64,000 nucleotides of DNA from contig JBGAQA010000030.1 in NCBI GenBank assembly GCA_044220955.1, positions 1 through 64,000 on the forward strand. The letters are read 5' to 3'. Positions 27,242 through 51,313 of this stretch are shown piece after piece (position 1 is the stretch's first letter; the number at the start of each line of letters is the position of its first letter). Under the pieces are notes generated by a model. The model was not told the DNA's origin. It did no database searches and saw only the letters and a list, made by a program, of their open reading frames with translations. The translations under genes and the position numbers were made by a program. Origin of the DNA: Sandaracinaceae bacterium. GTDB lineage: Bacteria > Myxococcota_A > Polyangia > Polyangiales > Sandaracinaceae.

Positions 27242-27318
27242 CCGCGGGCGTTCTACTACACAGCGTCCGAATTGCCGCGAAGTTGACCCCTCGCCCTGCC
27301 TCGGAGACAGGTCGGGCC

Positions 27319-30300: not shown

Positions 30301-30363
30301 GACGCCAGCCGGCGCCAGCTCTGCGAGCTCGGGTACCTGAGCGGAGACGAGTGCCACCGCTGA
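27319..30363 (+). CDS. Fusion of LPG-synthase-TM (flippase-like) domain, membrane region and sulfatase/alkaline-phosphatase-superfamily domain
   Basis: PVSINGIGLRE in the N-terminal half; VDTLRADH, SWTRPSFASIMTG, DPHDPY, YDGEI, ADHGE and HVPL in the C-terminal half; ends LCELGYL. Confidence 0.85.
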   Translation: MSSATMSDELSNPIAGPSSEPPPARRAAGGGGARRWVLFGIKLFVSVAILAGIARSIASQQGLASFGDAILHLGWGWVAAALGVHLVGVALNVVRYREVLRGQGIHASWRFLVGSFLVGRFFGALSPAGFTGLAGWRIYEVGTHSGKFARATAAITIDTIVGQLGFGAMVMIGSLFGARIIGVNGVLLVNAACIAIMASVVLVLAQPRLFAVIAARLPAKVRLRGQTFVDALQAYRGQTSILLVTLLCAVGVHAAHFFVYVCTAQALGASQIGPGEVFFGSSLQILATMAPVSINGIGLREMTAVALYTSPAIGVPMAIAVLIPSIGFAVEMSVSILGAPIWLARRSGYAPGIVVDAPEREQPAIAAIPVAPESAWPNVRRGAELGLGAGMLAGLVIGVVEGAVVVAGAEGRAGPWVMAYGAIAYAAFCGVVAAGIGATLAWSGRKMRREAAPEADAWARTSAGLVAAIGFGLTVFRVRRDVFHEEAGWLSPRMLASELGCALAYGLVALALAAVLVRIARRARFVLRPLGTPAVVIAALGVLVPTTLAVGEPSTNDPRVVHAAAAPEGAGNVIVIVVDTLRADHLPSYGYAAGRTPNLDAFAADSIRFEQAFSNASWTRPSFASIMTGRYPSSHAVMAKSESLPDAVTTMAEAFAAGGYATHGIVTNYNVGPYFNFQQGFDAYEYLSPDFVLGADDTAAKLLLVQFLRQRIETVRDAALGVQPGTAYQDASIVNEHVLSFLDRRPNDRPWMLFVGYMDPHDPYFRHPYDGTAYGRAAHPAPSPDETEMLTELYDGEITFWDEQFGALVQELQRRGIYDDATIVVTADHGEELCEHGGFWHGTTLYDEQIHVPLFVRLPRGRRAGTTVRHWVQSIDILPTLLSESHVAVPEGVQGGSLFEGSDHLFAEESHEGNVLEAVRERRGTDELKLITANPGNPRHLAEHELYRVDLDAAEQQDLAPTEPGLVESLAAATTAAHVRASEGAVEGQQVELDDASRRQLCELGYLSGDECHR

Positions 30364-30483: not shown

Positions 30484-32868
30484 ATGGGTGAACGCAGTCT
30501 GTTCGGGCGCGCACGAGCGCTCTTGGTCGTGTTGAGCGCTTTCGGTGCCCTGAGCGCAGGCTGCGCGGACGGGAACACCACGACCGGTGGTCATCGCGAC
30601 ACGGGGACCGGCGAGGCCGGCACGATGGACGCCGGGGTGCCGGACACCGGTCCGCGCGACTCGGGCGCGCTCGACTCGGGCGCCGTCGACGCGAACAACC
30701 ACGACGCCGGGGCCGACACGGGCCCGCACACGATCGTGGGCACGTGCGAGGCGTGCACGACGGACGCGGACTGCGACCCGATGTCGTTCTGCGCTCGCCT
30801 CGTGACCGGCGAGCACGCGTGCTTGCCCGGCTGCGACAGCGAGCTGCCCGTCTGCCCGCGCGCCTTCACGTGCATCTTCGACGCGACGGGCACGGGCGTA
30901 CACGCCAACGTCTGCGCGCCGGTCGGCGGACCCTGCTGCGTGGACGAGGACGCGGACACGTACGGCGTCGGCGTCGGGTGCATGGGTCCGGACTGCAACG
31001 ACTCGCTCGTCAGCGTGCACCCGGGCCGCGACGAGATCTGCGACGGCATCGACACCAACTGCAACGCGCACGTCGACGAGGATCCGAACGACTGCATGAC
31101 CGGGCGCTGCTCGGCCGACGGCGACGGGACGTACTCGGCCATCGCCGGCGCGACCTGCCGGCTCGCGGCGTGCACCTCGGGGACCAACACCGACTGCGGC
31201 CTCTACACGTGCCACGACGGCGCCGCGATGGGCACGACCTGCGCGACGCAGTGCTTGAGCGCCGCCGGGACCGACGACGACCTGTACTGCATCGTCAGCG
31301 CGCACTGCGACACGGGCGCTTGCGTGGCCGACGTGCCGAGCGGCGGCGTCTGCGACGAGGACAGCGACTGCTCCTCGACCCACTGCGACAACGGGTTCTG
31401 CTGCGGCTCGGGGACCTGCTGCGCCACGGACGCGAACTGCCCCGGCGGCGGATCGCCGACGCGCATCTGCGACGACCCGACGAACTGCCAGGGTCACCGC
31501 GGCGTCGTCACCTGCCAGAGCAACTCCTGCACGGCGATGAGCGGCATCAACGACGACACGGCCTGCGACGCGTCGGTCACGGCGCGTGACTGCGGCACCT
31601 ACAACCCCATCGTCTGCACCGGCGCGGATCCGCAGACGTCGCGCGCCTGCCCGACGAGCTGCGTCAGCGACGCGGACTGCGTGGCCGCGGCGCACTGCGC
31701 GGTCGGCTTCTGCATCCCCGATCTCCCGCAGGGCGGGCCCTGCGGCCGCAACGCGGACTGCCAGACGGGCCTCTCGTGCGTGGACAGCACGTGCTGCTCG
31801 AGCGCGTGCACGGGCGCGTGCATGGCGTGCAACGTCGCCGGCAGCGAGGGCACCTGCTCCGCCATCGCGGCCGGAAGCGATCCCGCTGGCGAGTGCCCCG
31901 GCTTCGCGTGCGACAACTACTACACGGGCTTCGGCGCCGGGAGCGACGTCTGCCGCTCCCGCGCCCCGGTCAGCGACTCGGCGGCGGCGTGTGACGGCGC
32001 GGGCGCGTGCCGCACGGCGGCGGTGATGTGCCCCGCCCAGCTGCCGGGCACCACGCAGATCGACTGCAACGACACCTGCATGACGCCGCGATCGGGGACG
32101 TGCACCGGCAACACGGCCGGCGTCTGCGACAACCTCGACGGGACGGCCGGGACGCGCAGCTGCGGCTCCGGCGCGTGCACGACGACGGTTCAGGCATGCG
32201 TGATGGGCCTTCCGCAGACCTGCATGGCCCCCATGGGCGGTCCCGAGAGCTGCAACGGCGTCGACGACAACTGCAACGGCACGGTGGACGACGGCGGCGC
32301 CGCGCTCTGCGGCGCGGTCCCCCACGTCGACACCCAGTCCTGCAACGGCTTCAGCGGGTGCGGCATCGCGATGTGCAGCACCGGCTGGGCCAACTACGAT
32401 GGGAGCACGGGCAACGGCTGCGAGTGCGACCTCGCCGGCGCGGGCGCCACCTGTGCAGTTGCGCGCAACCTCGGGTCGGTCACGGCGGGCATGACGATGT
32501 CCCAGACGGTGAACATCGGTCCCGGCGCCAGCTCGGCCTGGTTCCAGGTCGCCTTCCCTGCGGACGCCGCTCCGGCCCCGCGCGGCGGGACGCCGACGAT
32601 CTCGGTCACGCCGTCCGCGAACTTCCACATCTTCGTGTGGAGCAACTGCTCCGCCGGGACGTACGCCTGCAACGCCCCGGGCGACCCGGCGAACTCGGGC
32701 ACGGGCTCGTTCTCGACCTACCAGATGGCCGATACCGTCGCGAACGGACCGACGGGATACACGTCCGCGATGTCGTCGTGGCCCGCGACGGTCTACATCC
32801 AGGTCGTGCGCAACACGCCGGCGACCACCTGCGCGAACGCCACGTTCTCTCTCACCGTCTCGCGCTGA
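30484..32868 (+). CDS. Large Cys-rich lipoprotein with putative metal-binding (MopE-like) motifs
   Basis: Lipobox LSAGC; DCND...HPG..EICDGIDTNCN..VDE and ESCNGVDDNCNGTVDD motifs. Confidence 0.85.
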   Translation: MGERSLFGRARALLVVLSAFGALSAGCADGNTTTGGHRDTGTGEAGTMDAGVPDTGPRDSGALDSGAVDANNHDAGADTGPHTIVGTCEACTTDADCDPMSFCARLVTGEHACLPGCDSELPVCPRAFTCIFDATGTGVHANVCAPVGGPCCVDEDADTYGVGVGCMGPDCNDSLVSVHPGRDEICDGIDTNCNAHVDEDPNDCMTGRCSADGDGTYSAIAGATCRLAACTSGTNTDCGLYTCHDGAAMGTTCATQCLSAAGTDDDLYCIVSAHCDTGACVADVPSGGVCDEDSDCSSTHCDNGFCCGSGTCCATDANCPGGGSPTRICDDPTNCQGHRGVVTCQSNSCTAMSGINDDTACDASVTARDCGTYNPIVCTGADPQTSRACPTSCVSDADCVAAAHCAVGFCIPDLPQGGPCGRNADCQTGLSCVDSTCCSSACTGACMACNVAGSEGTCSAIAAGSDPAGECPGFACDNYYTGFGAGSDVCRSRAPVSDSAAACDGAGACRTAAVMCPAQLPGTTQIDCNDTCMTPRSGTCTGNTAGVCDNLDGTAGTRSCGSGACTTTVQACVMGLPQTCMAPMGGPESCNGVDDNCNGTVDDGGAALCGAVPHVDTQSCNGFSGCGIAMCSTGWANYDGSTGNGCECDLAGAGATCAVARNLGSVTAGMTMSQTVNIGPGASSAWFQVAFPADAAPAPRGGTPTISVTPSANFHIFVWSNCSAGTYACNAPGDPANSGTGSFSTYQMADTVANGPTGYTSAMSSWPATVYIQVVRNTPATTCANATFSLTVSR

Positions 32869-32882
32869 CGCGGCGCCGACCT
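32838..32882 (+). repeat. Direct repeat copy 1 (partner 37803-37846), overlapping the 3' end of the Cys-rich gene
   Basis: 27 bp identical core CGCCACGTTCTCTCTCACCGTCTCGCG, continuing to CGCGGCGCCGACCT with one substitution and one indel. Confidence 0.9.
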
Positions 32883-32902
32883 GCGTTTCCGGCGCGAGCT
32901 GC

Positions 32903-32982
32903 TCGGCGAGCGTGTCCTCGACGCCGCACAGCGCGTTGGCGCGCCCGAGGGCAGCCGCTGCCGCGGCGTCTGCGCCTGCTCC
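32903..32982 (+). pseudogene. Inverted 80 bp fragment of the ferredoxin gene (matches 38098-38177)
   Basis: 78/80 identity to the reverse complement by manual alignment; encodes GERVLDAAQRVGAPEGSRCRGVCACS. Confidence 0.85.
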
Positions 32983-37770: not shown

Positions 37771-37802
37771 TCGACCGTGGCAGGGTTGAACCTTCGCGCG
37801 CC

Positions 37803-37846
37803 CGCCACGTTCTCTCTCACCGTCTCGCGGTGCGCGGCGCCGACCT
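37803..37846 (+). repeat. Direct repeat copy 2 (partner 32838-32882), abutting the ferredoxin stop codon
   Basis: Same 27 bp core and CGCGGCGCCGACCT tail. Confidence 0.9.
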
Positions 37847-38229
37847 CATCGCCTCGAGCGCGCGGCCCAGGCCCGGACCGCGCGCTCGCGCTCGGCGGGC
37901 GAGGCCAGCTCGAGCCAGGCACGGAAGCTCTCCTCCGAGATCTCCACCTCGGCCGTGCCGGCGGCGATCGCGCGCGCCTGGCAGCCGAGGCGGCTCTCCG
38001 GGCGCGGCTCCTCGCACGCGAGCTCGATGACGTCGCGCTCGTCCTCGTGGACGGGGCTCAGGCTCTCCGCTCCGCTCCGCACGTAGACGTGGCACGTGGA
38101 GCAGGCGCAGACGCCGCGGCAGCGGCTGCCCTCGGGCGCGCCGACGCGCTGCGCGGCGTCGAGGACACGCTCGCCGATCGGCAGATCGCACGCGAGGTCG
38201 AGACCGACGAAGACGACGCGCAGGCCCAT
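37846..38229 (-). CDS. 2Fe-2S ferredoxin (adrenodoxin / ISC-Fdx type)
   Basis: CRGVCACSTCHVYV...SRLGCQ; ATG lies 1 bp after the stop of the upstream radical SAM gene. Confidence 0.9.
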   Translation of the reverse strand: MGLRVVFVGLDLACDLPIGERVLDAAQRVGAPEGSRCRGVCACSTCHVYVRSGAESLSPVHEDERDVIELACEEPRPESRLGCQARAIAAGTAEVEISEESFRAWLELASPAERERAVRAWAARSRR

Positions 38230-38230
38230 G

Positions 38231-39412
38231 TCACTCGCGGTCGAGGACGACGAGCCGGATCTTGGCGCTACCACGCTTGGCCGTGGCCTTGCGAACGGGG
38301 GCGCGCTGGGCGCGCGGGGCATGGCGACGAGCAGCCCCCTGCTCCCACACGAGCGGGGCGAACTCGCCCTCGCCGTAGATGTCGAGGTATCCGCGCCAGA
38401 CGCCCTCGCACACGTCGGTCAGCGCACAGCGCGAGCAGGCGTCCATGTGGTGCTTGAGGTCGTAGCGCTTGCGATCCTGCCAGTTGAAGCGAGCGCGACC
38501 GTCCTCGAACGAGGCGACGCCGTACTCGCCCTCGGCGCGGATCGAGCAATCGGTGGAGAGGTCGCGGAAGACGTCGCCGCAGTACTTCGCGAGCAGGTGC
38601 TTGCTGCGCAAGAGCTCCTCCGGGAGCACGCAGAGCGGGAACCCGCCGAAGGTGAACGTCTTCTTGAAGTGGTACTCGTTCAAGAGGATCGCCTTCGTGA
38701 GCAGCGGCACGATCTCGGTGTAGGTGGGCACGAGATCGGCGTTCCCCTCGGCGTAGCCCTCGGGGCGCACGAAGTTCACGCGCAGATCGTCGAGGCCCAT
38801 CGTGTCGAAGAAGAACTTCATCATCGCGAGCAGGTGCGGCCCGTTCTTCGCATTGAGCACGATGTTCACGGAGACGCCGTCCGCGAGGTGTCCCTCCGAC
38901 TTGCGCTTCAAGAGGTTCCGGATCGCTGCGCACTTCTTCTCGTACGCGCCCGGCACCATCACGAGCTCGTCCTCGAGCGCCTTGGTGTGCCCGTGCATGG
39001 AGATCGTCGTGCGCGTCAGGCCGGCCGCGAGGAGCTTGTCGGTGAACTCCATGCGCCGCAGCATCATCGCGTTGGTGGCGAGCGCGATCCGCGTGTAGCC
39101 GAGCTCCTTGGCGTACGCGACCGACTCGACGATCTTCATGTACGTGGTCGGCTCGCCCCCGAGGAAGCCGACGGACAGGTGGCCCTCGGCCCGCCAGCGC
39201 TCGAGCTCGCGCTTCATCACCTCGAAGTCGATGAACGCGAGATCCTCCTTCGTCGGCATCCCGTCGAGACAGAAGACGCACTTGTTGTTGCAGACCTTGC
39301 CGACGTTGATCTCGACGTTCTTGCGGAGGTCCCGGTAAGTGCTGGTCACCTGGTTCGCGCTCGGGGAGAGCGCGGAGCTGGCCGGTGCCGGTGCGTCGCC
39401 GTCCGCGCTCAC
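38231..39412 (-). CDS. Radical SAM protein with C-terminal CxxC-x5-C motif (HxsC-like position)
   Basis: CNNKCVFC, GGEPT, TNA, FPLC and CSRCALTDVCEG. Confidence 0.88.
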   Translation of the reverse strand: MSADGDAPAPASSALSPSANQVTSTYRDLRKNVEINVGKVCNNKCVFCLDGMPTKEDLAFIDFEVMKRELERWRAEGHLSVGFLGGEPTTYMKIVESVAYAKELGYTRIALATNAMMLRRMEFTDKLLAAGLTRTTISMHGHTKALEDELVMVPGAYEKKCAAIRNLLKRKSEGHLADGVSVNIVLNAKNGPHLLAMMKFFFDTMGLDDLRVNFVRPEGYAEGNADLVPTYTEIVPLLTKAILLNEYHFKKTFTFGGFPLCVLPEELLRSKHLLAKYCGDVFRDLSTDCSIRAEGEYGVASFEDGRARFNWQDRKRYDLKHHMDACSRCALTDVCEGVWRGYLDIYGEGEFAPLVWEQGAARRHAPRAQRAPVRKATAKRGSAKIRLVVLDRE

Positions 39413-40419
39413 GACCCGCCCGCCTTCACGTAGGGAGTCAGGGCCGTCGTCGGGAAGATCTCCGCGTAGCGGTCGAACACGCCCATGCAGACGTCACGAC
39501 GCGCGCAGTCTCGGCAGGCATGGGCGTGGACGCGCTTGCGGTCGGGCGCCCAGGAGTAGATCGCCTCGAACACGACCTTGCCCGGCGCGCTGCCCCACTC
39601 GACGGTGACGCGCGGATCCCAGTGCAGATCGTTCGAGAGGAACGCGTGATCGCCCAAGAGGCACATCGGGGTACCGAAGAAGCGTACCACCGCGCGGGGA
39701 GCGCGCGACGGTACCTGGGGCAGCACCCGGGCCAGCGTATCGAGCGGCACCGCCAGCCGCTCGTAGTCGTCCAGGCCCTTGCCCTCGGGCGTGACGTTCG
39801 AGATCACGATCAGCTCGGCCCCGAGGGCGTCCGCGAGCGCGGCGGTGTCGGGCAGCGCCTCCACGTTCTGGCGCGTGACGACCGTGTTCACGTACGCGCG
39901 GAAGTCCGGGCGCAGACGCCTCGCGTTCGCGATCGCGGCGCAGACCTGCTCGAAGCTCCCCTCGCGCCCCGCCATGGCGTCGTGCAGCGCCGCGTCGGGC
40001 CCGTGGAGCGAGAAGAGCCCCTCGTCGAGGAAGGGCAGCGCGCGCGCCGCGAACTCCGCGCGCGCGATCATCGTCCCGATGGTCCCGATCGACGTGCGCA
40101 TCCCCAGCTTCTTGGCGAGCGCGAGCACCTCGACGAACTGCGGATGGATCGTCGGCTCGCCCCCGGTGAAGTGGACGTTCTTCACGCCACGCGACGCGTG
40201 CATGCGCAGGACGGTGGCCACGCGTGCCCACGTGACGGGGAAGGGCCTGAAGCGCTGCATGCGGTGCTCTTCGGAGCAGAACGAGCAGCGCTCGGGGCAG
40301 GTGTACGTGAGGTGCAGCTCGAGCCGCTCCATCACCCGGCCGTTCCGCGCGATCCAGGGTGTCGCGTTCTCGGCCTTCGCCGGGGCGTGCGCGCCGAGGA
40401 CGGGGAGAGACACCCTCAT
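39409..40419 (-). CDS. Radical SAM protein with C-terminal CxxC-x5-C motif, paralogous to 38231-39412
   Basis: CPERCSFC, TGGEPTIH, SLHG...HD, PMC and CRDCARRDVCMG. Confidence 0.88.
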   Translation of the reverse strand: MRVSLPVLGAHAPAKAENATPWIARNGRVMERLELHLTYTCPERCSFCSEEHRMQRFRPFPVTWARVATVLRMHASRGVKNVHFTGGEPTIHPQFVEVLALAKKLGMRTSIGTIGTMIARAEFAARALPFLDEGLFSLHGPDAALHDAMAGREGSFEQVCAAIANARRLRPDFRAYVNTVVTRQNVEALPDTAALADALGAELIVISNVTPEGKGLDDYERLAVPLDTLARVLPQVPSRAPRAVVRFFGTPMCLLGDHAFLSNDLHWDPRVTVEWGSAPGKVVFEAIYSWAPDRKRVHAHACRDCARRDVCMGVFDRYAEIFPTTALTPYVKAGGS

Positions 40420-40441
40420 GGGCGCGGACCTCGACGCCTCG

Positions 40442-41425
40442 TCACGCGGCCCTCGACCGGCGAGCGTCGATCCAGCGCGGCAAGAGGCGCCGACAGAAGC
40501 GCGTGAGGGCCTCGTCGGCCGCCAGGGTCGAGCTCCACACGCGCGGCGGGAGCGTGCGCTCGAGCAGCGCGTTCACCTCGCGCTGCTTGCCCGCGAGCGC
40601 GGCGGGAGTCGGCGGCGCGTCGAGGTCGCCGCAGCGCGTCTGATCGAGCAGTTCCTCGAGCGCGCCCGAGAGGCCCACGTTCGAGGGATGGATCGTCCGG
40701 TCCGCGTCGACGACCAGGCCCGTGTTGAAGAAGGGCGTCGGCGCCCGGGTCGTGAGGTTGCGGACGTAGAGCCACTCGCCCGCCGCCCATCGCGCCTCGA
40801 TGTTCTCCGCCATCGCGCCGAGCGCGCGCTCGAGCGCCGCGAGCTGCTCGTCGGTCCAGGGGATGTAGTAGCCGGGGAGGAAGTTGAAGCGGCGGAAGCC
40901 CAGCGAGAGGAGGTGCTCGAAGTTGTCCGCGGCGGCCGCCGCCGTCGCGGGCGGGATGGTCTGCGTGACCACCACGCGCGGCAAGCGCGCGAGCCGAGGC
41001 GCGAGCGCGGCGAGGTGATCGTAGGTGTCCAGGACCTTGGGCAGCGAGCGGCGGTGCCGGCGGTGGTCCTCGGGCCGCCCGTCCATGGAGACCTGCAGGA
41101 TGGTCTTGGGTCGCGAGGCGAGCAGCTCGAGCCACGCGTCGTCGAGCATCAGGCCGTTCGTCGAGAGCTGGATGGAGCGGATACCCGGCAAGGTCTCGGC
41201 GTGATCGATCGCCGCGCGCACGACTTCCGGCACGAGGAGCGGCTCGCCGCCGAAGAGCTTCACCGCGCCGCCACCGAACGCGCCGACGAAGAGGTCGAGG
41301 GCGCGGCGCGCGTCGGCGGCGCTGAGCGAGGGCCAGCCGTCCTTCGCGGTCGGGCAGTAGCTACAGCGCAGGTTGCAGGCGCGCGTGACCGTCAGGACCA
41401 GCAGCGATGCTGCGTCCGCCGGCAC
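40442..41425 (-). CDS. Radical SAM protein (anSME/AslB-like core, no clear SPASM cysteines)
   Basis: TRACNLRCSYC, FGGEPLL, STNG and VSMDG..E.H motifs. Confidence 0.88.
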   Translation of the reverse strand: MPADAASLLVLTVTRACNLRCSYCPTAKDGWPSLSAADARRALDLFVGAFGGGAVKLFGGEPLLVPEVVRAAIDHAETLPGIRSIQLSTNGLMLDDAWLELLASRPKTILQVSMDGRPEDHRRHRRSLPKVLDTYDHLAALAPRLARLPRVVVTQTIPPATAAAAADNFEHLLSLGFRRFNFLPGYYIPWTDEQLAALERALGAMAENIEARWAAGEWLYVRNLTTRAPTPFFNTGLVVDADRTIHPSNVGLSGALEELLDQTRCGDLDAPPTPAALAGKQREVNALLERTLPPRVWSSTLAADEALTRFCRRLLPRWIDARRSRAA

Positions 41426-41452
41426 GTCACCCCGCCCGACGCGCTCGCGTCG

Positions 41453-41839
41453 TCACCACTGACCGTGCGAGCCGTGCGAGCCGTGCGAGCCGTGCGAGCC
41501 GTGCGAGCCGTGCGAGCCGTGCGAGCCGTGCGAGCCGTGCGAGCCGTGCGAGCCGTGCGAGCCGTGCGAGCCGTGCGAGGCGTGCGAGCAGTGCTGCGCG
41601 AGGATGATGCTGCGGCTCGCGGGATCGGCGAGCAGGTCGTCGGCTGCGATGAGGAGATCCGCCGTCCGATCGGGACGCGTCGCCTGCTCGGTCTCGCGCG
41701 GCTGCATGAAGAGCGCCGGGGCGCGCCTGCGCCGCGGAAGCATCGGCGCGGCTGCCTGACGGGGCTGACGCCCGAGCTGCACGAGCTCGGTGCTCGCGTC
41801 CGGCGTGGCGTTGTCGTCCCTCTTCTCGCCTTCGGCCAT
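41453..41839 (-). CDS. hxsA: His-Xaa-Ser repeat precursor peptide (HxsA-like)
   Basis: 82-aa leader ending IILAQ, then HCS-HAS-(HGS)12-HGQW; strong RBS AGGAGAGG; flanked by radical SAM genes. Confidence 0.85.
41463..41579 (+). repeat. Perfect 9-bp tandem repeat (CCGTGCGAG)x13 encoding the HGS tract on the minus strand
   Basis: 117 bp equals 13 identical units, counted directly. Confidence 0.95.
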
Positions 41840-41937
41840 GATCCCTCTCCTACTGCACGGCGGAGTGCCCGACGAGGTCGAGCAAGTTACGTTCTAGCAC
41901 GGGCGTCCGGGTCACGGATAGCGTACGACGAATCCGG

Positions 41938-43521
41938 TCAAACGGCGCAGCTTTGTCCCTGCTCCCGAGGGCGGGTCAGGATCCAGCGGCGGAACATCGC
42001 TTCGATCTCGCCGCTCGGGTCGTTCGCCAGCCGCTCGAGGAGCAGGGAGGCGATGGTGTAGTGCTCCTTGCACTTGGGGGAGTTCGGCCGCTGGCCGAAA
42101 ATATCCCCGCTCTTCATGTAGTTGTGCATCGGACAGACGCCGCAGAACGGCTTGTTCCAGCACGTGTCGCAGCCCGGCAGCGAGTCCTGCAGCGACGCGA
42201 CGGCCATCGCCCGCACCGTCGGGTGCTGGATCATCTCCGGATACGCTGTGCTCCCGACCTCGCCGATCTGGAACAGGTCGTTGCCCATCGCCGAGGTCAT
42301 CCGCGCCTCGTCGCAGGGAAAGAGCTTGCCGTCGTAGTTGTAGGCCACCTGGCCCGTTCCGGCGCCGCACGGCGAGCGGATGTCGACGAAGTTCGGATCG
42401 TCACCCGTGAGCATCTTGGCGAGGAACGTCGCCGACGTGCCCTCGACGATGGTGACGCCCTTCCGATTGAGCTCGATCAGGTAGTCGAGCGCCTGCGCGT
42501 AGAAGTCGAGGTACTCGGTCGTCGTGTAGCCGATGGCCTTCCACGTCGCGAGGGCGAACCCGTACGGGTTCAGCGGGCGGAGGTGGATCGTGTGCATCCC
42601 GAGCTCGACGTAGAGGTCGACGACCTCCTTGAAGTGCTCGAGCGTCTTGCGCGTCGTCGTCATCAGCGCGTCGACGTGCCAGAGCTGCGGGTCGCGCCCG
42701 AGCTCGACGTAGCGCCGGTTGAAGTAGGCGATCCACTCGCGCACGGTCTCGTAGGCGCCGGCCTTCGCGAGATCCTTCCCGGGGGGCCCCTTCTTTCCGG
42801 GAGGCAGAGTGTCGGGTGACTGCTTCCACGCGCGGTTCCAGTCGTGCACGTGCTGCGGTCCGTCGAGCGAGGTGCATACGAGCACGTCGTTCGCGATGAG
42901 CCACTCGGCCTTCTCCTCGGTCATGAACGTCATGTTCGTGACGAGCGAGTGGACGAGATCCTTCTTCTCGTACTTGTTCTTCTCGCGGCTGTACTCGACC
43001 ACGAACTTGATCGCGTCGAAGTTGGCCGTGGGCTCGCCACCCTGGAACTCGAAGTTGATCGTCGGCGAGGTCGACTGCATCGCGTGGTCGACCACCTGCT
43101 TGGCCGTCGCGAGCGACATGTCCGTGTCGACGCGATCCATGTCCGTGCGCGAAGCGTGGCAGTACTTGCAGCTCTGGTTGCAGCGCAGCGTCGTGATGAC
43201 GATGTGCAGGTGGGGCCCGTGGCTGAGAAACGCCTTCTTCCGGCGTACGCGCGCCGCGAGGTCGTCGATGTCCAGGCCCTCGCGGAGAAACCCCTTGGCC
43301 CGCAGCGCGGCGTGCTCGGGGTGCGCCTCGGTGATCTGGCCCGCGAGCAGCGCCTCGAAGTCGGACTTGGAGAGGAAGTGCCACTGTCCGGCGTCGTTGG
43401 TGACGATCATCCGCCCGGCGACCTCGCCCCAGCGGAAGAACGAGAGCTTGTCGGTCACGAGGGGGAGGCGGCGGACGCTGAGGGTCTTCTTGGTCACCGC
43501 GCCGACGACGGAATCGCTCAT
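41938..43521 (-). CDS. hxsB: His-Xaa-Ser system radical SAM/SPASM maturase HxsB
   Basis: LHIVITTLRCNQSCKYCHAS, EFQGGEP, TSLDGP..VHD.NR, RSPCGAG.GQVAYNYDG..FPCDEARM and CDTC..KPFCG.CP. Confidence 0.88.
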   Translation of the reverse strand: MSDSVVGAVTKKTLSVRRLPLVTDKLSFFRWGEVAGRMIVTNDAGQWHFLSKSDFEALLAGQITEAHPEHAALRAKGFLREGLDIDDLAARVRRKKAFLSHGPHLHIVITTLRCNQSCKYCHASRTDMDRVDTDMSLATAKQVVDHAMQSTSPTINFEFQGGEPTANFDAIKFVVEYSREKNKYEKKDLVHSLVTNMTFMTEEKAEWLIANDVLVCTSLDGPQHVHDWNRAWKQSPDTLPPGKKGPPGKDLAKAGAYETVREWIAYFNRRYVELGRDPQLWHVDALMTTTRKTLEHFKEVVDLYVELGMHTIHLRPLNPYGFALATWKAIGYTTTEYLDFYAQALDYLIELNRKGVTIVEGTSATFLAKMLTGDDPNFVDIRSPCGAGTGQVAYNYDGKLFPCDEARMTSAMGNDLFQIGEVGSTAYPEMIQHPTVRAMAVASLQDSLPGCDTCWNKPFCGVCPMHNYMKSGDIFGQRPNSPKCKEHYTIASLLLERLANDPSGEIEAMFRRWILTRPREQGQSCAV

Positions 43522-43778
43522 CGGCTGACCTCCCGCGAGCGCGCGACCGTCTCGGAGAGCGCGTAGTTCGCCAGCTCGTCGGCCAGCACGGCGCTGACGC
43601 TCGGGTGCGCGTGCTCGATGATCACCAGCATGTCCTCCGCGTTGTGCAGCACCTTGAGGGTCGCGAGGTCGGCGAACGCCTTCACAGCGTCCTCGACGGC
43701 CTCGGGGACGTAGAGCGACCGGTGGAAGCGAACGTGCTCGGGATCGGCCGCGGCCGACGGCTCCGCGGAGGACCCCAT
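43518..43778 (-). CDS. Short HxsD-like protein
   Basis: FHRSLY..EAV..A...F and LADELANYAL parallel the motifs of the upstream HxsD; overlaps both neighbours. Confidence 0.65.
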   Translation of the reverse strand: MGSSAEPSAAADPEHVRFHRSLYVPEAVEDAVKAFADLATLKVLHNAEDMLVIIEHAHPSVSAVLADELANYALSETVARSREVSR

Positions 43779-44287
43779 CAGCGCTTCTCCTCGGCGGGAG
43801 CGCCCGGCGGCGAAGCAGGGCTGGCCTTTTTCTCCCAGGGGACGGCGACCTCGAGCGGGGCCTCGGCCATCTCCTCGGCGTCGAGCTCCGCCAGGAGCTG
43901 GTCGATCGTGCTCTTCTGGTCGGACGCGAAGAACGCGCGGGCCATGTAGTACTCGCGGATGCGGGCCGTCGACTCGCCGACGCGCAGGCGCAGCACCTGG
44001 TTGAGCAGCTCGTTGGCCAGCTCGCCCGCGAGCGCCTCGAGCTCCGCCGCGGTGGCCGGTCCCTTCGTGCGCAGCCGCACCGCGACGCGCTGATCGGCCG
44101 GTCGATCGAGGAGCACGTAGCAGCGGTCGATGAAGAGGTAGGTGGCGCCGTAGATCGCGTCGCGCGGATAGAGCTGCTCGTCGATCACGAAGCGGATCTG
44201 GCGCTCGGAGAGCTCGTACTCGAAGTCCGCGCGATCGCCCGGCCCCGAGACGTCGGAGCGCTGCGGGGGAGCCGCCACTTCGCTCAT
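43778..44287 (-). CDS. hxsD: His-Xaa-Ser system protein HxsD
   Basis: IDEQLYPRDAIYGATYLFIDRCYV and ELANELLNQVLRLRV...TARIRE resemble the HxsD signature; operon context agrees. Confidence 0.75.
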   Translation of the reverse strand: MSEVAAPPQRSDVSGPGDRADFEYELSERQIRFVIDEQLYPRDAIYGATYLFIDRCYVLLDRPADQRVAVRLRTKGPATAAELEALAGELANELLNQVLRLRVGESTARIREYYMARAFFASDQKSTIDQLLAELDAEEMAEAPLEVAVPWEKKASPASPPGAPAEEKR

Positions 44288-44814
44288 GCCGTCTCCGCGA
44301 CCTGGTATCCGCCGTGCACCGCGTTGCGCTGCTCGTGCGTGAAGAGCGCCCGCAGCGCGACGCGCTGGTCGGGCGAGACGCCCCCTCGAAGGGCCGCCGA
44401 CTCGACGCGGCGAACGCGCGCCGCGAGGCTCATCACGGCGACGCCACCGGCCTCCTGCGTGATGCGATCACCATCGCCACCGTTCATCCAGCGCAGGTCG
44501 AGCAAGCGCGTCGTCGCCAGCCCCGCCGAGAGCGGCGAGCGCCGGAAGACCTGCACGACCGCTCGCGCGCCGTCCTGGCGGGCGAGCGTCACCGTCGCGG
44601 ACCCGCGCTGCACGTCCGAGACCGCCAGCACGCGGAAACCCCCGGGGAGCGGCCGGCCGATCAGCGGGGCGAAGAGGAAGTCCAGGCTCGGCAGGTGGCC
44701 GCGGCCTTCCGCGCGCTGGCCACCGGTCGGTCCTGCGCTGGCGAGCAGGGGCAGCGGAAGCGCTGCGCTCACGGCACCGGCACCCACGATCCCGAAGAAC
44801 GTCCGTCGTCGCAT
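44284..44814 (-). CDS. Twin-arginine (Tat) signal protein of unknown function, first gene of the Hxs operon
   Basis: MRRRTFFGIVGAGAVSAAL...; GGAG RBS; 4-nt ATGA overlap with hxsD. Confidence 0.7.
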   Translation of the reverse strand: MRRRTFFGIVGAGAVSAALPLPLLASAGPTGGQRAEGRGHLPSLDFLFAPLIGRPLPGGFRVLAVSDVQRGSATVTLARQDGARAVVQVFRRSPLSAGLATTRLLDLRWMNGGDGDRITQEAGGVAVMSLAARVRRVESAALRGGVSPDQRVALRALFTHEQRNAVHGGYQVAETA

Positions 44815-44861
44815 TGGTGTACTCCGTGGCCTCGTCCAAGCGGAACCGAGGCCGCGCTCAG

Positions 44862-44890
44862 AGGATACGCCCGCGCGGGCCCGGGGTGAA
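44862..44890 (-). promoter_or_regulatory. Candidate sigma-70 promoter of the Hxs operon
   Basis: Minus strand TTCACC-N17-TATCCT, followed by a GGCCTCG/CGAGGCC hairpin (44828-44853) just ahead of the RBS. Confidence 0.5.
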
Positions 44891-44913: not shown

Positions 44914-46296
44914 TCAGAGCTCGAGGGGGCCTCGGTAGCCGTCGACCAGCGCGTTGGCCATGACCTCGCCCAGGCGCGTGTAGCCGCGCGCGGTGTAGTG
45001 CGTGTGGTCGGGCTGCGCCCACGCCGGATCGGCCGCCGCCCACTCGACCATGTGGAGGTCGCCCCCGCCGAACGCGACGAGGTCGAAGAAGCCGCAGCCG
45101 TAGTCCCGCGCGACGCGGCGCTGGACCTCGACGACCTGCGCCGTGCGCGGGCGCGTCTCGAAAGTGTGGTCTCGGTGGACGATGGGCCGGTCGGACGGGC
45201 CGACCAGCAGGCAGGACGCACCCGGCACCGCGCTCTGCACCCGGCCGACCACCGCCCGCACCGCGGCCTCGTAGTCCTCGATGGGCTGGTCGTCGTCACC
45301 GCTCTCGTTGGTGCCGTACGCGAGCACGACGAGATCCGGCATGCGGCGTCGCAGCTGCTCGGCTTGCAGCTCGGGGTTCCAGAGGAGCTGCGCGGCGGCA
45401 CGCGCGCCGTTGATCCCGAGCGTGTCGACGATCACGCCCGGTCGCTCGCGCTCGACGGTCGCGCCGTAGATCGTGACCGTTCCGTCGCCCCGCGTGCGGA
45501 CCTCGAAGGTGTGAGGGCGGTCCTCCGCGCTGACGACGGTGTAGACGGGGTGCGGGTGATCGGAGCGCGAGTTCAGCCGGCGATCGAGGTGCCCATCGAC
45601 GAGCACGTCGATCGTGCCGCCGTCCGGGCGCTCCGCGTACCAGAGCTCGAAGCGGCTCGCCGGCTCCGCCCCGGTGTCGATGCGGCCCCACGCGCGGGGT
45701 GCCTCCGTCGTGAGCGTGACGCCCATGATCCCGTACAGCTGCGGCTCGGTCTGCCCGACGTGAACGCGCAGGATGTCCCAGCGGCGGTAGTTCGAGGTGA
45801 CGTCGAGGTCCGCCGCTCGGTAGCTCGGCCAGGGCTCGACGGGGAGCACGAAGCCGTGACCGGCGTCGCCGAAGCGCGACTGCAAGAGGTGGCGCACGGT
45901 ACCGGTGTAGATGTCGGCGGCCACGTGCGAGGCGCCGTAGAACACGATGCGCGACTGGCCCTCGCCGGTCGCGGCGCGGCGCAGGGACTCGTGGAACGCG
46001 CGCAGCGCCGTGCCGCTCGCGTCTTCGATCGCGACGTCGACGCCGTAGATCGGTCGACCCTGCTCGTCGAGCGGCCAGACCGGCGCCGCGGGTAGCGCCG
46101 GATCGGTCGAGGGGGTCATGGCGCCGGACGCCGCGTCGGACGCCTCGGGGACCGGCGGATCGGCCAGCGCGACGAGCAGCGGGCCGGTACCCTCGACCTC
46201 CTGGGCCACGGAGTGCGAGGGACCGTTCGCGACGAGCCCCGCGCCCACCAGCGCGAGCCCGATCATCGAAGCGCGGAGCGCGGCGGCCGACCTCAC
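44914..46296 (-). CDS. Secreted SGNH/GDSL hydrolase (O-acetyltransferase / esterase-like)
   Basis: Blocks FYGASH, GINGAR, YGTNE and DHTHY. Confidence 0.82.
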   Translation of the reverse strand: MRSAAALRASMIGLALVGAGLVANGPSHSVAQEVEGTGPLLVALADPPVPEASDAASGAMTPSTDPALPAAPVWPLDEQGRPIYGVDVAIEDASGTALRAFHESLRRAATGEGQSRIVFYGASHVAADIYTGTVRHLLQSRFGDAGHGFVLPVEPWPSYRAADLDVTSNYRRWDILRVHVGQTEPQLYGIMGVTLTTEAPRAWGRIDTGAEPASRFELWYAERPDGGTIDVLVDGHLDRRLNSRSDHPHPVYTVVSAEDRPHTFEVRTRGDGTVTIYGATVERERPGVIVDTLGINGARAAAQLLWNPELQAEQLRRRMPDLVVLAYGTNESGDDDQPIEDYEAAVRAVVGRVQSAVPGASCLLVGPSDRPIVHRDHTFETRPRTAQVVEVQRRVARDYGCGFFDLVAFGGGDLHMVEWAAADPAWAQPDHTHYTARGYTRLGEVMANALVDGYRGPLEL

Positions 46297-48713: not shown

Positions 48714-49943
48714 GTGAAACGCACCCCCTCGTCGGTCCTCTCCCTCGCCGCGCTCGCGCTCGCGTCGTGCGGCACGCCTGCCGACACGCTCTCCGACGGC
48801 CGTCCCGTGCTCGAGGACTACGCGGCGATCCTGCACGCCGAGTACGACGACGCGCGCATCGACGCGCTCGATCTGCGCACGAGCGCGCAGCCGCTCTTCG
48901 CCTCGGGGACGAGCGCGAGCGCCGCGGCGCTCACCGGCGCGCGCGACGCGTGGCGGGACGCTCGCGTCACGTACATGCAGACCGAGGCTGCGCGCTTCTA
49001 CGGCGGGCCGATCGCGGACCACTCCGCCTACACGAACGAGTGGCCGATCGACGAGGCGCAGATCGACTACGTCGCGGGAACCGGCGGCGCGCCGAGCTTC
49101 GGAGGCATCGTGAACATGCCGTCCGCGGTCCCGACGATCGACGCGGCGGCGCTCCGTGACGCGAACCTCCCGACGGGATCCGAGACGGTCACCGTCGGCT
49201 TCCACGCCATCGAGTTCCTGCTCTGGGGCCAGGATCTGCGCGCGGACGGCGCCGGCGATCGTCTGCACACCGACTTCGTCGATGGAATGCAGATGAACGC
49301 CGACCGACGCCGGGCGTACCTCGACGTCACGACCCAGATGCTCGTGGGCGAGCTGACGGCGGTGCGCGACGCGTGGGCGCCAGGCGCGAGCAACTACCGC
49401 GCGGAGTTCGTCGCGCTCGAGCCGCGCGAGGGCGTGCACCGCATCCTCATCGGCCTCATCCGCTTGCTCGGCGGCGAGATCGGTGACGACCGAATCCTGC
49501 CGGCGTACACCGACAAACTGCAGGAGGACGAGCACTCCTGCTTCAGCGACAACACGAGCGCCGACCTGCTCAACGACGTGCAGGGCGCGGTGAACGTGTA
49601 CGAGGGGCAGTACACGCGGACCGACGGAACGGTGGTCGGTGGCCACGGGCTGTCCGACCTCGTGCGCGCGCGCGACGCGGCGCTCGACGCGCGTGTCCGC
49701 GCCGCGCTCCAGGCCGTGCTCACGCACCTGGCGGCGTGGCCGACGACGGCCTCCTGCCCGAGCGCGACCCTTCAGGGCATGTGTCCCTTCGATCAGCTCT
49801 TCCTCGGCGTCGACAGCGATCCGGGGCGCATCGCGATGTGGCAGGTGCACACGGAGCTCGAGGATCTCGCGGCCCTGCTGCAGACCGACGTCGCCGCCAC
49901 GCTGGGCGTCACGATCACGCCGGCGGATCTCTCGAACGACTGA
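48714..49943 (+). CDS. Imelysin family iron-regulated lipoprotein (IrpA/IcmP-like)
   Basis: Lipobox LASC; NEWPIDEAQIDYV, GFHAIEFLLWGQD and EDEHSCFSDNT motifs. Confidence 0.9.
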   Translation: MKRTPSSVLSLAALALASCGTPADTLSDGRPVLEDYAAILHAEYDDARIDALDLRTSAQPLFASGTSASAAALTGARDAWRDARVTYMQTEAARFYGGPIADHSAYTNEWPIDEAQIDYVAGTGGAPSFGGIVNMPSAVPTIDAAALRDANLPTGSETVTVGFHAIEFLLWGQDLRADGAGDRLHTDFVDGMQMNADRRRAYLDVTTQMLVGELTAVRDAWAPGASNYRAEFVALEPREGVHRILIGLIRLLGGEIGDDRILPAYTDKLQEDEHSCFSDNTSADLLNDVQGAVNVYEGQYTRTDGTVVGGHGLSDLVRARDAALDARVRAALQAVLTHLAAWPTTASCPSATLQGMCPFDQLFLGVDSDPGRIAMWQVHTELEDLAALLQTDVAATLGVTITPADLSND

Positions 49944-51313
49944 TGCGTCGGCGTCTCGCGGCGCTCGGAGCCCCGTTGCTCGCGTCGAGCCTCGTCGCGG
50001 CGTGCGCGGCGACGGCGCCCTCCCTCGACCCGGGTGAGTCGATGCCCGGCGGGGGCGCGACGACGCAAGACGCGTCGCGCGCGGCGCTCGAGCACGAGGT
50101 GCTCGGGCTCGACGAGGCGCAGCACGCGGCGTTCGTCGTCGGCGACAGCTTCACCACGCACGACTGGGTGAGCGCGCCGGCGTCGGCTTCCTCCCGCGAC
50201 GGCCTCGGTCCGCTCTACAACGCCACGCGCTGCAGCGCCTGTCACGCGCGGAGCGGCCGCGGCCGACCCGCCGACGAGGGCGGCGAGATGCTCTCGTCGC
50301 TGGTGCGGCTCAGCGTGGCCGGCGCGGACGCCGAGCCGACCTACGGCGCGCAGCTCCAGACGCGCGCGATCCTCGGCGTCCCGCCGGAGGCCGCGACCCT
50401 CACGCGCTGGATCGAGACGCGAGGCGCGTTCGCCGACGGCACACCGCTCTCGATGCGCGCGCCGCGCGTGGACATCGTCTCTCTGGCCTATGGGCCGATG
50501 GCCGAGGCCACGCTCGTGTCGGTGCGGACGGCGCCCGCGCTGGTCGGGCTCGGCTTGCTCGAGGCGATCCCCGACGCGGCGCTCCTCGCGAACGAGGATC
50601 CGGACGACGCGGATCACGACGGGATCTCGGGGCGCGCGAGCCGCGTGTGGGACGCCGAGCGCGGGGCGTGGCGCCTCGGGCGCTTCGGGTGGAAGGCCTC
50701 GATGCCCGACGTGCGCACGCAGACGGCGGCCGCGCTCGCCGGGGACATGGGGATCACGTCCGTGGCCGTGGGAGCGCAGCCCTGCACGGAAGCGCAGCGC
50801 GAGTGCGCGGCGGCCCCGGACGGAGGCGAGCACGAGGCGAGCGACCTGGTGCTCGACGCCATCACGCTCTACCAGCGCGCCCGCGAGGTGCCCGCGCGGC
50901 GCGACGCGTCGGACGCGCGCGTTCTGCGCGGTCGCGAGCTCTTCCACGCCGCTCAGTGTGCGAGCTGCCACGTGCCCTCGTTCGTCACCGGCCCGAGCGA
51001 CGTCGCTGCGCTCGCGGGCCAGCAGGTCTGGCCCTACACGGACCTCTTGCTCCACGACATGGGAGAAGGTCTCGCCGACGGGCGCCCGGACCACGCCGCG
51101 ACCGGCCGCGAGTGGCGGACGCCCCCGCTGTGGGCGGTGGGCCTGGCCGAGGTCGTGTCGGGCGAGGCCTTCTACCTGCACGACGGGCGTGCCCGCGACG
51201 TGACGGAGGCGATCCTGTGGCACGACGGCGAGGCCGAGGCCGCACGTGAGGCTTTCGTCACGATGAGCGCGAGCGATCGCGACGCGCTCGTGCGATTCGT
51301 TCGTTCCCTCTAG
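49943..51313 (+). CDS. Di-heme oxidoreductase (DHOR/DUF1111) family lipoprotein
   Basis: GLGPLYNA..CSACH, GRFGWKA, CASCH, PYTDLLLHDMG, WRTPPLW and LHDGRAR motifs. Confidence 0.92.
   Translation: MRRRLAALGAPLLASSLVAACAATAPSLDPGESMPGGGATTQDASRAALEHEVLGLDEAQHAAFVVGDSFTTHDWVSAPASASSRDGLGPLYNATRCSACHARSGRGRPADEGGEMLSSLVRLSVAGADAEPTYGAQLQTRAILGVPPEAATLTRWIETRGAFADGTPLSMRAPRVDIVSLAYGPMAEATLVSVRTAPALVGLGLLEAIPDAALLANEDPDDADHDGISGRASRVWDAERGAWRLGRFGWKASMPDVRTQTAAALAGDMGITSVAVGAQPCTEAQRECAAAPDGGEHEASDLVLDAITLYQRAREVPARRDASDARVLRGRELFHAAQCASCHVPSFVTGPSDVAALAGQQVWPYTDLLLHDMGEGLADGRPDHAATGREWRTPPLWAVGLAEVVSGEAFYLHDGRARDVTEAILWHDGEAEAAREAFVTMSASDRDALVRFVRSL

What the first reader, a model, noticed from the sequence alone, without database searches (positions are those of the whole stretch)
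37846..44890. Expanded His-Xaa-Ser peptide-modification operon: four radical SAM enzymes, two HxsD-like proteins, a Tat protein and a ferredoxin around one (HxS)14 precursor
Seen: nine co-oriented genes joined by overlaps or gaps of 1-27 bp (one 98 bp gap, before the precursor), four CxxxCxxC motifs and a short HxS-repeat ORF. Established: HxsA/HxsB/HxsC/HxsD are named families, defined bioinformatically as a precursor plus a radical SAM pair; to my knowledge the modification chemistry and product are unresolved. Inference: this is a RiPP-like or metal-binding peptide system with more catalytic steps than the canonical pair, plus its own electron donor and an exported partner. It is the best candidate in this window for an undescribed system.
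Basis: partly seen in the sequence, partly recalled or inferred. Interest (0 to 1): 0.92.

Follow-up and report, generated by a model that had tools for sequence, protein, structure and literature searches.

The report
Myxobacterial His-Gly-Ser peptide maturation-export operon
This is a real myxobacterial gene cluster, an enlarged relative of the HXS anti-phage system of E. coli, in which radical SAM enzymes probably cross-link a His-Gly-Ser repeat peptide; the peptide has no export signal of its own and may be carried out of the cytoplasm by a small partner protein that has one.

Summary
Observation confirmed: nine coupled minus-strand genes, four CxxxCxxC enzymes, an (HxS)14 precursor. HxsB, HxsD, HxsD-like and HxsA4 pass NCBIfam cut-offs; the three downstream rSAMs pass none. 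The cassette is a conserved Myxococcota subtype (precursor ends HGQW): 48 of 49 R1 orthologues have a precursor in the locus or genome. The ferredoxin is not core (4 of 41 loci). The operon is only part of the system: an aKG-HExxH hydroxylase and further HxsC-like enzymes lie on other contigs and track HxsA4. New here: across 78 genomes, 17 have precursors carrying their own twin-arginine or hydrophobic signal and no stand-alone Tat partner was found; 49 of 60 with signal-less precursors, like this one, have the partner. This suggests hitchhiker export (untested; possibly one evolutionary event). Chemistry (His-Ser cyclophanes) and role (phage defence versus metal binding) are inferred. The scan noted HxsA4-type and expanded Hxs clusters before on other DNA (29 findings). 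New variant of a known kind.

The parts
44284..44814 (-). Twin-arginine signal protein, 176 aa, no named family; proposed carrier of the matured peptide
   Evidence: No Pfam, NCBIfam or PADLOC hit. RR plus hydrophobic stretch in 32 of 34 orthologues, RR invariant in the 31-row alignment. Confident model from about residue 40 on, no clear fold match, best Z 5.6. 57 of 59 genomes with the domain also have an HxsA4 match.
43778..44287 (-). HxsD (D1), 169 aa, with an acidic C-terminal tail
   Evidence: TIGR03976 54.8 bits, cut-off 50. Model resembles Rpb11/Pcc1-type dimerising domains, weakly (Foldseek E 1.2e-3; best Z 7.3).
43518..43778 (-). HxsD-like protein (D2), 86 aa
   Evidence: NF038315 58.8 bits, cut-off 41; D1-D2-HxsB is the shared core of both HxsA4 subtypes.
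41938..43521 (-). HxsB radical SAM/SPASM maturase, 527 aa
   Evidence: TIGR03978 490 bits, cut-off 370; C-terminal cysteines 385-484; 34-35% identical to two canonical plasmid HxsB, one clade 100/99.
41453..41839 (-). HxsA4 precursor, 128 aa: 83-aa leader without export signal, core HCS-HAS-(HGS)12-HGQW
   Evidence: NF038313 119.7 bits, cut-off 55. Leader maximum hydropathy 0.87. Leader box shared with Tat-signal-bearing precursors, hhalign probability 71%, score 28.5 against at most 11.0 in 50 column shuffles.
40442..41425 (-). R1: unnamed radical SAM enzyme, 327 aa, HxsB-side paralogue without conserved auxiliary-cluster cysteines
   Evidence: Best NCBIfam hit PapB 92 bits, cut-off 340; only the three motif cysteines conserved in 6 sequences; groups with HxsB, 96/87; 49 orthologous loci.
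39409..40419 (-). R2: unnamed HxsC-like radical SAM enzyme, 336 aa
   Evidence: HxsC4 81 bits (cut-off 500), HxsC 67 (268); four further conserved cysteines; follows R1 in 38 of 41 loci.
38231..39412 (-). R3: unnamed HxsC-like radical SAM enzyme, 372-393 aa
   Evidence: HxsC4 144.5 bits (cut-off 500); five further conserved cysteines; next to R1-R2 in 22 of 41 loci, elsewhere in 3 of 5 other genomes tested.
37846..38229 (-). 2Fe-2S ferredoxin, 127 aa; coupled to R3 here but an accessory, not core
   Evidence: Pfam Fer2 27.7 bits, cut-off 21; fdx_isc 52 bits, cut-off 132. Downstream of R1 in 4 of 41 loci. The genome's ISC ferredoxin lies on contig C110.

Best explanation
An HxsA4-type (His-Gly-Ser repeat) maturation and export system, the 'HGQW' subtype of Myxococcota. 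Step 1 (family membership shown, function inferred): HxsB with D1/D2 and the HxsC-like enzymes recognise the precursor's conserved leader box and modify the HxS triplets in the cytoplasm, most likely by His-to-Ser three-residue cross-links, then further tailoring by R1-R3 and by partners encoded on other contigs (two more HxsC-like rSAMs on C243, an aKG-HExxH hydroxylase on C276, an HxsC4-like enzyme on C263). Step 2 (inferred from gene distribution): the modified peptide leaves the cytoplasm through Tat; because this precursor has lost the twin-arginine signal that relatives carry behind the same leader box, it rides out bound to the small Tat-signal protein at the head of the operon. Step 3 (inferred by homology only): the product works in the periplasm, most likely as a barrier to incoming phage DNA like E. 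coli HxsA. My odds per step: the precursor is the enzymes' substrate 0.9; His-Ser cross-links 0.5; export by the Tat partner 0.5; anti-phage role 0.4.
For: Families over cut-off: HxsB, HxsD, HxsD-like, HxsA4. Precursor in the locus for 45 of 49 R1 orthologues, elsewhere in the genome for 3 of the other 4. Among 61 relatives, of 35 with an HxsA4 precursor all 35 have HxsB, 34 the C243-type rSAM, 32 the HExxH enzyme; of the other 26, 1, 1 and 2 (counts include unpublished G026, positive for all four). Own-genome C263 and C243 enzymes are 50%, 41% and 43% identical to genes of a CPR HxS cluster, L157. Chemistry precedents: His-C2 to Ser-Cbeta link in an HAS motif made by a radical SAM enzyme (PMC12912966, passages); aKG-HExxH enzymes hydroxylate His and Asp on a pre-installed cyclophane (PMC12636437, passages). 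Export: 17 of 78 genomes have signal-bearing precursors (13 twin-arginine, 4 hydrophobic) and no stand-alone Tat partner was found in any; 49 of 60 with signal-less precursors have a hit to the partner's domain; G207 has both precursor types and the Tat gene sits beside the signal-less one. TatC is in the genome. Hitchhiker export of signal-less subunits is established (PMC4273604, abstract and opening text). The same domain is fused in front of a radical SAM enzyme in four HxsA4-bearing genomes, twice near the precursor. E. coli HXS: periplasmic HxsA, +8 Da on SHRSS, blocks 110 of 113 phages (PMC13128918).
Against: No experiment on any HxsA4 system was found. The core has no Lys or Arg and no peptidoglycan-binding domain, the two features Li et al. 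tie to DNA capture. The system is common and positionally stable (HxsB in 25 of 31 genomes of the family; same flanks in three same-genus genomes), and only 11 of 130 flanking ORFs hit PADLOC models, mostly partial generic domains (no control run). 11 of 60 signal-less genomes gave no Tat-partner hit, six of one genus including 100%-complete G011. The signal-bearing genomes fall in 7 families that may be one clade, so the pattern may be one event. 23 of the 49 partner hits were not inspected for the twin arginine, and 7 of the 17 signal-bearing genomes had only the shallow search. The domain also occurs in unrelated settings (membrane proteins, a lipoprotein, an RsmI-like methyltransferase). 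The +8 Da of E. coli is not a simple -2H cross-link, and HxsB's best solved relative is not a cyclophane synthase (5wgg E 1e-21; ChlB E 2.4e-5).
Confidence: 0.45

Rival explanations
1. Same maturation and export, but the product is a periplasmic poly-histidine metal binder (Cu, Ni or Zn buffering or uptake), not a phage barrier.
For: 15 His in the precursor and a leading HCS; no basic residues for DNA binding; common and stable in its family. A paper on ribosomal peptide metallophores appeared (PMC11626156, search listing only).
Against: No recurring metal transporter or metal regulator among 50 flanking ORFs scanned with Pfam (single MarR, ArsR-type and MerR-type hits; MopE-motif proteins in 3). 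The only tested relative is a phage defence system. Cross-linking at His C2 would alter metal binding in unknown ways.
Confidence: 0.25
2. The peptide stays in the cytoplasm or is processed into small products; the Tat protein is exported alone (immunity, sensor or envelope anchor) and is not a carrier.
For: The window's precursor has no signal; 11 signal-less genomes gave no partner hit; no protease or RiPP transporter in the operon; the domain occurs in non-Hxs proteins.
Against: Does not explain why none of 17 genomes with signal-bearing precursors yielded a stand-alone partner, nor the two precursor types in G207.
Confidence: 0.2
3. R1-R3 and the ferredoxin form a separate small-molecule or cofactor pathway that merely sits beside the Hxs core.
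For: None passes an Hxs family cut-off; R3 is often apart from R1-R2 (19 of 41 loci); R1-R2 lie without a precursor within 10 kb in L116 and L125.
Against: 48 of 49 R1 genomes have a precursor; 18 of 19 other genomes with R3 homologues have an HxsA4 match; R2 and R3 fall among HxsC-like enzymes and R1 beside HxsB.
Confidence: 0.07

Closest known systems
Canonical HXS anti-phage system, HxsD-HxsB-HxsC-HxsA (TIGR03976-03979; Li et al., Nat Commun 2026, PMC13128918)
   Same: HxsB and HxsD pass the family cut-offs; an HxS-repeat substrate; HxsC-like partners; an export signal somewhere in the system.
   Different: No HxsC over cut-off (best 67 of 268 bits in the operon); precursor is HxsA4, not HxsA (16.6 of 121.65 bits), with 14 Gly-spaced neutral repeats, no signal peptide and no peptidoglycan-binding domain; a second HxsD-like gene; three extra rSAMs in the operon and more elsewhere; a separate Tat protein. 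The paper reports 99.7% of systems in Pseudomonadota; 'Myxococc' does not occur in the two supplements that could be searched.
HxsA4/HxsC4 systems catalogued in NCBIfam (NF038313, NF038315, NF038332), the 'HGSW' subtype
   Same: HxsA4 precursor, D1-D2-HxsB core, Tat-domain protein, HExxH and further rSAM partners in the genome.
   Different: The named HxsC4 (568 bits in G029) is absent; R1, R2, R3 stand in its place; the precursor ends HGQW; the Tat gene heads the operon.
Triceptides (three-residue cyclophane RiPPs) with aKG-HExxH hydroxylases, e.g. minviopeptin MicB and ChlBH
   Same: Aromatic-X-Ser triplets, a SPASM-type radical SAM enzyme, an HExxH hydroxylase that tracks the system; a His-Ser link in an HAS motif is structurally proven (PMC12912966).
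   Different: HxsB scores far below cyclophane-synthase models (YhhB 45.7 of 445 bits); many more enzymes and repeats; export appears to be Tat rather than protease plus transporter; cross-linking is not shown for any Hxs protein.
Tat hitchhiker substrates (HybOC, PaoABC; PMC4273604)
   Same: A signal-less partner exported with a twin-arginine-bearing subunit.
   Different: Known cases are cofactor enzymes; a search for all of twin-arginine, RiPP, precursor peptide, radical SAM and periplasm found no paper. Binding is not shown here.

Membership tests
Canonical HXS system | HxsB radical SAM maturase (TIGR03978) | tested here: met
   490 bits, cut-off 370; clade with two canonical HxsB 100/99
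Canonical HXS system | HxsD (TIGR03976) | tested here: met
   54.8 bits, cut-off 50
Canonical HXS system | HxsC (TIGR03977) next to HxsB | tested here: not met
   R2 67.4, R3 64.9 bits, best of the other own-genome rSAMs scanned 100.3; cut-off 267.9
Canonical HXS system | HxsA with its own signal peptide and peptidoglycan-binding domain | tested here: not met
   TIGR03979 16.6 of 121.65 bits; leader hydropathy 0.87; protein ends four residues after the repeats
Canonical HXS system | Blocks phage DNA entry; +8 Da modification; periplasmic effector | not testable with these tools
   Needs experiments
HxsA4-type system (NCBIfam) | HxsA4 precursor (NF038313) | tested here: met
   119.7 bits, cut-off 55; the score is partly driven by the repeats
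HxsA4-type system (NCBIfam) | HxsD-like protein (NF038315) | tested here: met
   58.8 bits, cut-off 41
HxsA4-type system (NCBIfam) | HxsC4 (NF038332) | tested here: not met
   R3 144.5, R2 81.3, C263 enzyme 167.6 bits; cut-off 500
Triceptide pathway | Aromatic-X-X core motifs | tested here: met
   14 His-X-Ser triplets; HAS precedent in PMC12912966
Triceptide pathway | Maturase of a named cyclophane-forming family | tested here: not met
   Best NCBIfam scores far below cut-off, e.g. YhhB 45.7 of 445 for HxsB, FxsB 31.7 of 370 for R1
Triceptide pathway | Demonstrated -2 Da aromatic-to-Cbeta cross-links | not testable with these tools
   Needs MS/MS and NMR
Tat substrate (44284-44814) | N-terminal twin-arginine motif followed by a hydrophobic stretch, conserved; Tat translocase in the genome | tested here: met
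   32 of 34 orthologues by pattern (one of the two misses is cut by a contig end); tatC over cut-off. No dedicated signal predictor was available.
Tat hitchhiker pair | Physical complex between signal-bearing and signal-less partner | not tested
Dedicated pathway ferredoxin | Co-occurs with the enzyme cassette | tested here: not met
   4 of 41 loci

The most novel reading that the evidence does not exclude
HxsA4 systems make a heavily cross-linked poly-(His-Gly-Ser) peptide, tailored by eight or more radical SAM enzymes and a hydroxylase spread over the genome, and export it through Tat. In this lineage the twin-arginine signal has moved off the precursor onto a dedicated carrier protein, giving a RiPP exported as a Tat hitchhiker and forming a constitutive periplasmic barrier to phage DNA in predatory myxobacteria.
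Probability: 0.25. Interest if true: 0.85.

Novelty: new variant of a known kind. Interest (0 to 1): 0.56.

Why it matters
The chemistry of HXS maturation is unresolved, and E. coli HxsA could not be modified in vitro because it forms inclusion bodies (PMC13128918). HxsA4 is a short, hydrophilic, signal-less substrate with near-identical repeats, so it may be the easier route to the His-Xaa-Ser chemistry, and it brings three unnamed radical SAM families plus an HExxH hydroxylase acting on one peptide. The complementary pattern of signal peptides gives a concrete, cheap test of how these products leave the cytoplasm, a step Li et al. call non-canonical and open. If the role is defence, HXS immunity extends to Myxococcota in a form kept by most members of some families; if it is metal binding, the same machinery serves two functions.

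Tried and rejected
Ferredoxin as core donor: rejected, 4 of 41 loci. Upstream GDSL gene (44914-46296, 99 bp gap): only in 3 of 49 loci, all same genus. MopE-motif protein at 30484-32868 first looked like a fifth rSAM by motif; Pfam shows only MopE repeats. Prepilin-type leader cleavage (a lead from earlier notes): I noticed no peptidase gene in ORF lists of L096, L099 and L157 (read by eye and by a membrane-segment count), and most signal-bearing leaders proved to be twin-arginine types. The C111 fusion of the Tat-partner domain to an RsmI-like methyltransferase does not track the system (1 of 61 genomes). Fold searches of the Tat protein gave no clear match; the ESM Atlas gave only hits under 0.9. 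A match of the domain to the N-terminus of a CPR rSAM was too weak to use (probability 11%). PADLOC hits of the four rSAMs are generic viperin-domain matches. No R3 relative in the phage collection; HxsB relatives on 17 plasmids are 33-36% identical in the 12 rows listed, canonical type. No sigma-70 promoter or minus-strand terminator match. RNA: one sludge metatranscriptome gave 8 short contigs on the 16 kb laid, 5 in the operon, one across the R2/R3 junction; DNA carry-over is not excluded, so no weight. Complex prediction of Tat partner with precursor was not available. Literature: 7 searches showed no paper on HxsA4 or myxobacterial Hxs systems in the rows listed (one search listed 40 of 46, 10 of 72, 10 of 335); a survey of conserved Myxococcota clusters has no Hxs term in its main text (PMC12766979, term search only). 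Haft and Basu 2011 was not read; it is known here only through PMC9062424 and PMC13128918. Not used: protein homologue searches, representative search, metagenome and viral contig scans.


Full report
1. Observation. The nine minus-strand ORFs are there, with gaps of -4, -1, -4, +98, +27, +22, -4 and +1 bp. Four carry CxxxCxxC and pass the Pfam radical SAM cut-off. The precursor core is HCS-HAS-(HGS)12-HGQW, the only HxS array in the 7.5 Mb, 88%-complete genome, which also has a single HxsB. NCBIfam names four genes over cut-off: HxsD (54.8/50), HxsD-like (58.8/41), HxsB (490/370) and HxsA4 (119.7/55). The three downstream enzymes, called R1, R2 and R3 here, pass no family cut-off. Near-identical sequence is held by activated-sludge and bioreactor runs of several studies; contigs of three DNA runs cover the operon in pieces and break in the repeat, so the count of 14 is not independently confirmed. 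Record titles of the nearest R1 loci name Sandaracinus, Sandaracinaceae and Myxococcota.

2. What is known. Li et al. 2026 (PMC13128918; I read the abstract, introduction, results, discussion and part of the methods, and term-searched two of three supplements; one PDF and the source-data table were unreadable) show that E. coli HxsD-B-C-A blocks 110 of 113 phages at DNA entry. HxsA there has a signal peptide, five basic HxS repeats and a peptidoglycan-binding domain, and gains +8 Da (+C, -4H) on SHRSS; the chemistry and the export route are left open. So the family is no longer functionally blank, but this locus is not the canonical system: it has no HxsC over cut-off and its precursor has neither signal nor anchor.

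3. Conservation. A scan of species-representative genomes with the R1 alignment kept 80 loci, 49 of them at 42-82% identity; the other 31 (23-38%) were treated as non-orthologues and left out of the counts. Some of the 49 are close kin, three are same-genus genomes. An HxS array lies within the fetched stretch in 45 of 49 and nearly all end in HGQW. Of the four exceptions, three genomes have an HxsA4 over cut-off elsewhere; the fourth is a 3 kb contig in a 4.1 Mb assembly. Among 38 loci with enough upstream sequence, the precursor is upstream in 36, D1 in 34, HxsB in 33 and the Tat gene in 33; among 41 with enough downstream sequence R2 follows in 38, R3 in 22 and the ferredoxin in 4. R3 was found elsewhere in 3 of 5 genomes tested that lack it beside R1. 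More distant R3 homologues (36-58%) occur in 19 other genomes of a 301-genome class sample; only 3 of 20 fetched stretches hold a long HxS array, but 18 of the 19 genomes have an HxsA4 match. A second, commoner subtype (precursor ending HGSW, D1-D2-HxsB core, named HxsC4) fills most of the family.

4. The operon is part of a larger kit. Genes that flank the cassette in about 15 of the 49 loci (an aKG-HExxH hydroxylase and two HxsC-like rSAMs) have 51-54% identical orthologues on other contigs of this genome: C243 (604 and 345 aa) and C276 (HExxH, TIGR04267 88/40 bits), plus further HxsC-like enzymes on C276, C263 and C122. In 61 relatives, 35 have an HxsA4 precursor (34 over cut-off plus G040, checked by eye). 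All 35 have HxsB, 34 a C243-type match (full length only in window-type genomes) and 32 the HExxH enzyme; among the other 26 the counts are 1, 1 and 2. These tallies include unpublished G026, which is positive for all four; no conclusion depends on it. Kin are not independent, but joint absences occur inside three different genera (G015, G017, G027, 93-99% complete). In a 33-sequence tree R1 sits beside HxsB (96/87) and R2, R3 and the satellites among HxsC-like enzymes (97/93; midpoint root, several long branches); three satellites are 41-50% identical to genes of an HxS cluster in a CPR record, L157.

5. Export. The 176-aa protein has a twin-arginine motif and hydrophobic stretch in 32 of 34 orthologues, folds confidently from about residue 40 with no clear structural match, and its domain was found in 59 of 301 class genomes, 57 of them among the 87 with an HxsA4 match. 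tatC is present. Classifying precursors from 78 genomes (those whose precursor I had fetched; G026 left out) gave a complementary pattern. In 17 genomes the precursor itself carries a signal directly behind a conserved leader box (13 twin-arginine, 4 hydrophobic without RR), and none yielded a stand-alone Tat partner; deeper searches were run in 10 of the 17, and five weak hits proved to be the domain inside membrane proteins, a lipoprotein-like ORF or a long ORF and were not counted as partners. In 60 genomes the precursor has no signal; 49 have a partner hit (26 inspected for RR, 23 not) and 11 have none, six of them one genus. G207 has both types, and its Tat gene stands with the signal-less one. 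The window-type leader shares the box with the signal-bearing leaders (probability 71%, score 28.5 against at most 11.0 in 50 shuffles) and lacks what follows. The same domain is fused in front of a radical SAM domain in four HxsA4-bearing genomes, in two of them near the precursor, which fits a module that binds the peptide. The simplest reading is that the export signal moved from precursor to carrier, a hitchhiker arrangement known for HybOC and PaoABC (PMC4273604, abstract and opening text). Limits: the 17 genomes span 7 families that may be one clade; binding was not modelled; the domain also occurs outside Hxs settings.

6. Chemistry. Inferred. A radical SAM enzyme links His C2 to Ser C-beta in the HAS motif of minviopeptin (PMC12912966, passages), and aKG-HExxH enzymes hydroxylate His and Asp only after cyclophane formation (PMC12636437, passages). 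An HExxH enzyme tracking an (HxS)n precursor points the same way. By arithmetic, +C -4H equals one added carbon with two or three desaturations or cross-links, so the E. coli shift is compatible but not proof. HxsB's nearest solved relative by sequence is 5wgg (E 1e-21), ChlB is distant (E 2.4e-5). D1's model resembles Rpb11/Pcc1 dimerising domains at weak scores, which suggests, no more, a D1-D2 heterodimer scaffold; E. coli HxsD binds HxsC.

7. Role. Inferred by homology. For defence: the only tested relative, and export to the periplasm appears conserved. Against: neutral Gly-spaced repeats, no cell-wall anchor, presence in 25 of 31 family genomes, stable flanks in the genus, and no defence-island signal (11 of 130 flanking ORFs hit PADLOC, mostly partial generic domains, no control). 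Metal binding is the main rival; 50 flanking ORFs showed no recurring metal-handling gene. RNA evidence was too thin to use.

8. Novelty and verdict. Families HxsA4, HxsB, HxsD and HxsD-like are catalogued; the canonical system has a published function; this scan has 29 earlier findings on HxsA4-type or expanded Hxs clusters in at least 27 other genomes (unchecked notes; 8 shown). I found no paper on this branch in seven searches (three lists were partial), and no earlier finding holding all the words of the Tat-carrier reading. What is new is the HGQW subtype with three unnamed enzyme families, its dispersed partners, and the complementary signal pattern.

Noticed in passing
window 32830-32982 and 37790-38180: An 80-bp inverted copy of part of the ferredoxin gene (97.5% identical) and a direct repeat of about 52 bp (92%) bound a 4.9 kb block (acyl-CoA dehydrogenase, acetoacetate-decarboxylase-like gene and others) that is absent between ferredoxin and MopE gene in three same-genus genomes. 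Metagenome contigs break at both copies and cover the block, so it looks real.
   Followed up: partly
G000 contig C111:37787-38998 (L214:754-1965, minus): The Tat-partner domain fused to an RsmI-like tetrapyrrole-methylase domain; found in 1 of 61 genomes.
   Followed up: partly
L277, L278, L279: The same domain, behind a Sec-like signal, at the N-terminus of about 600-residue membrane proteins in three genomes whose HxsA4 carries its own signal. Function unknown.
   Followed up: no
L157:801-12716 (CPR record): HxS precursor with hydrophobic signal, about nine radical SAM genes and a U32-family gene pair; shares three enzymes at 41-50% identity with this genome.
   Followed up: partly
L111:4839-5594, L130:8259-9995, L105:3-320: Very long or doubled precursors: 58 HxS triplets; two tandem precursors with 19 and 42; at least 33.
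   Followed up: no
G010, contigs C54 and C50 (L024, L045): One genome carries both the HGQW and the HGSW subtype, each with its own HxsB, HExxH enzyme and Tat-domain gene.
   Followed up: partly
L027, L028, L030, L035, L039 (genus g7): Precursor and HxsC4 are split from D1-D2-HxsB and sit behind a PEGA-domain gene and a small unknown gene; no stand-alone Tat partner found, a candidate for another export route.
   Followed up: partly
L223:3691-6975 (plasmid record): Canonical hxsB-hxsC followed by a nuclease-like ORF, with no HxS precursor annotated in the stretch shown; in L224 a short signal-bearing HxS precursor precedes hxsB and a thermonuclease gene follows hxsC.
   Followed up: no
window 48714-51313: Imelysin and di-haem oxidoreductase genes, an iron-uptake-type pair, 4 kb upstream of the operon on the other strand.
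   Followed up: no
window 27211-30363: 1050-aa fusion of a lysylphosphatidylglycerol-synthase-type membrane region with a sulfatase domain, conserved in the genus.
   Followed up: no
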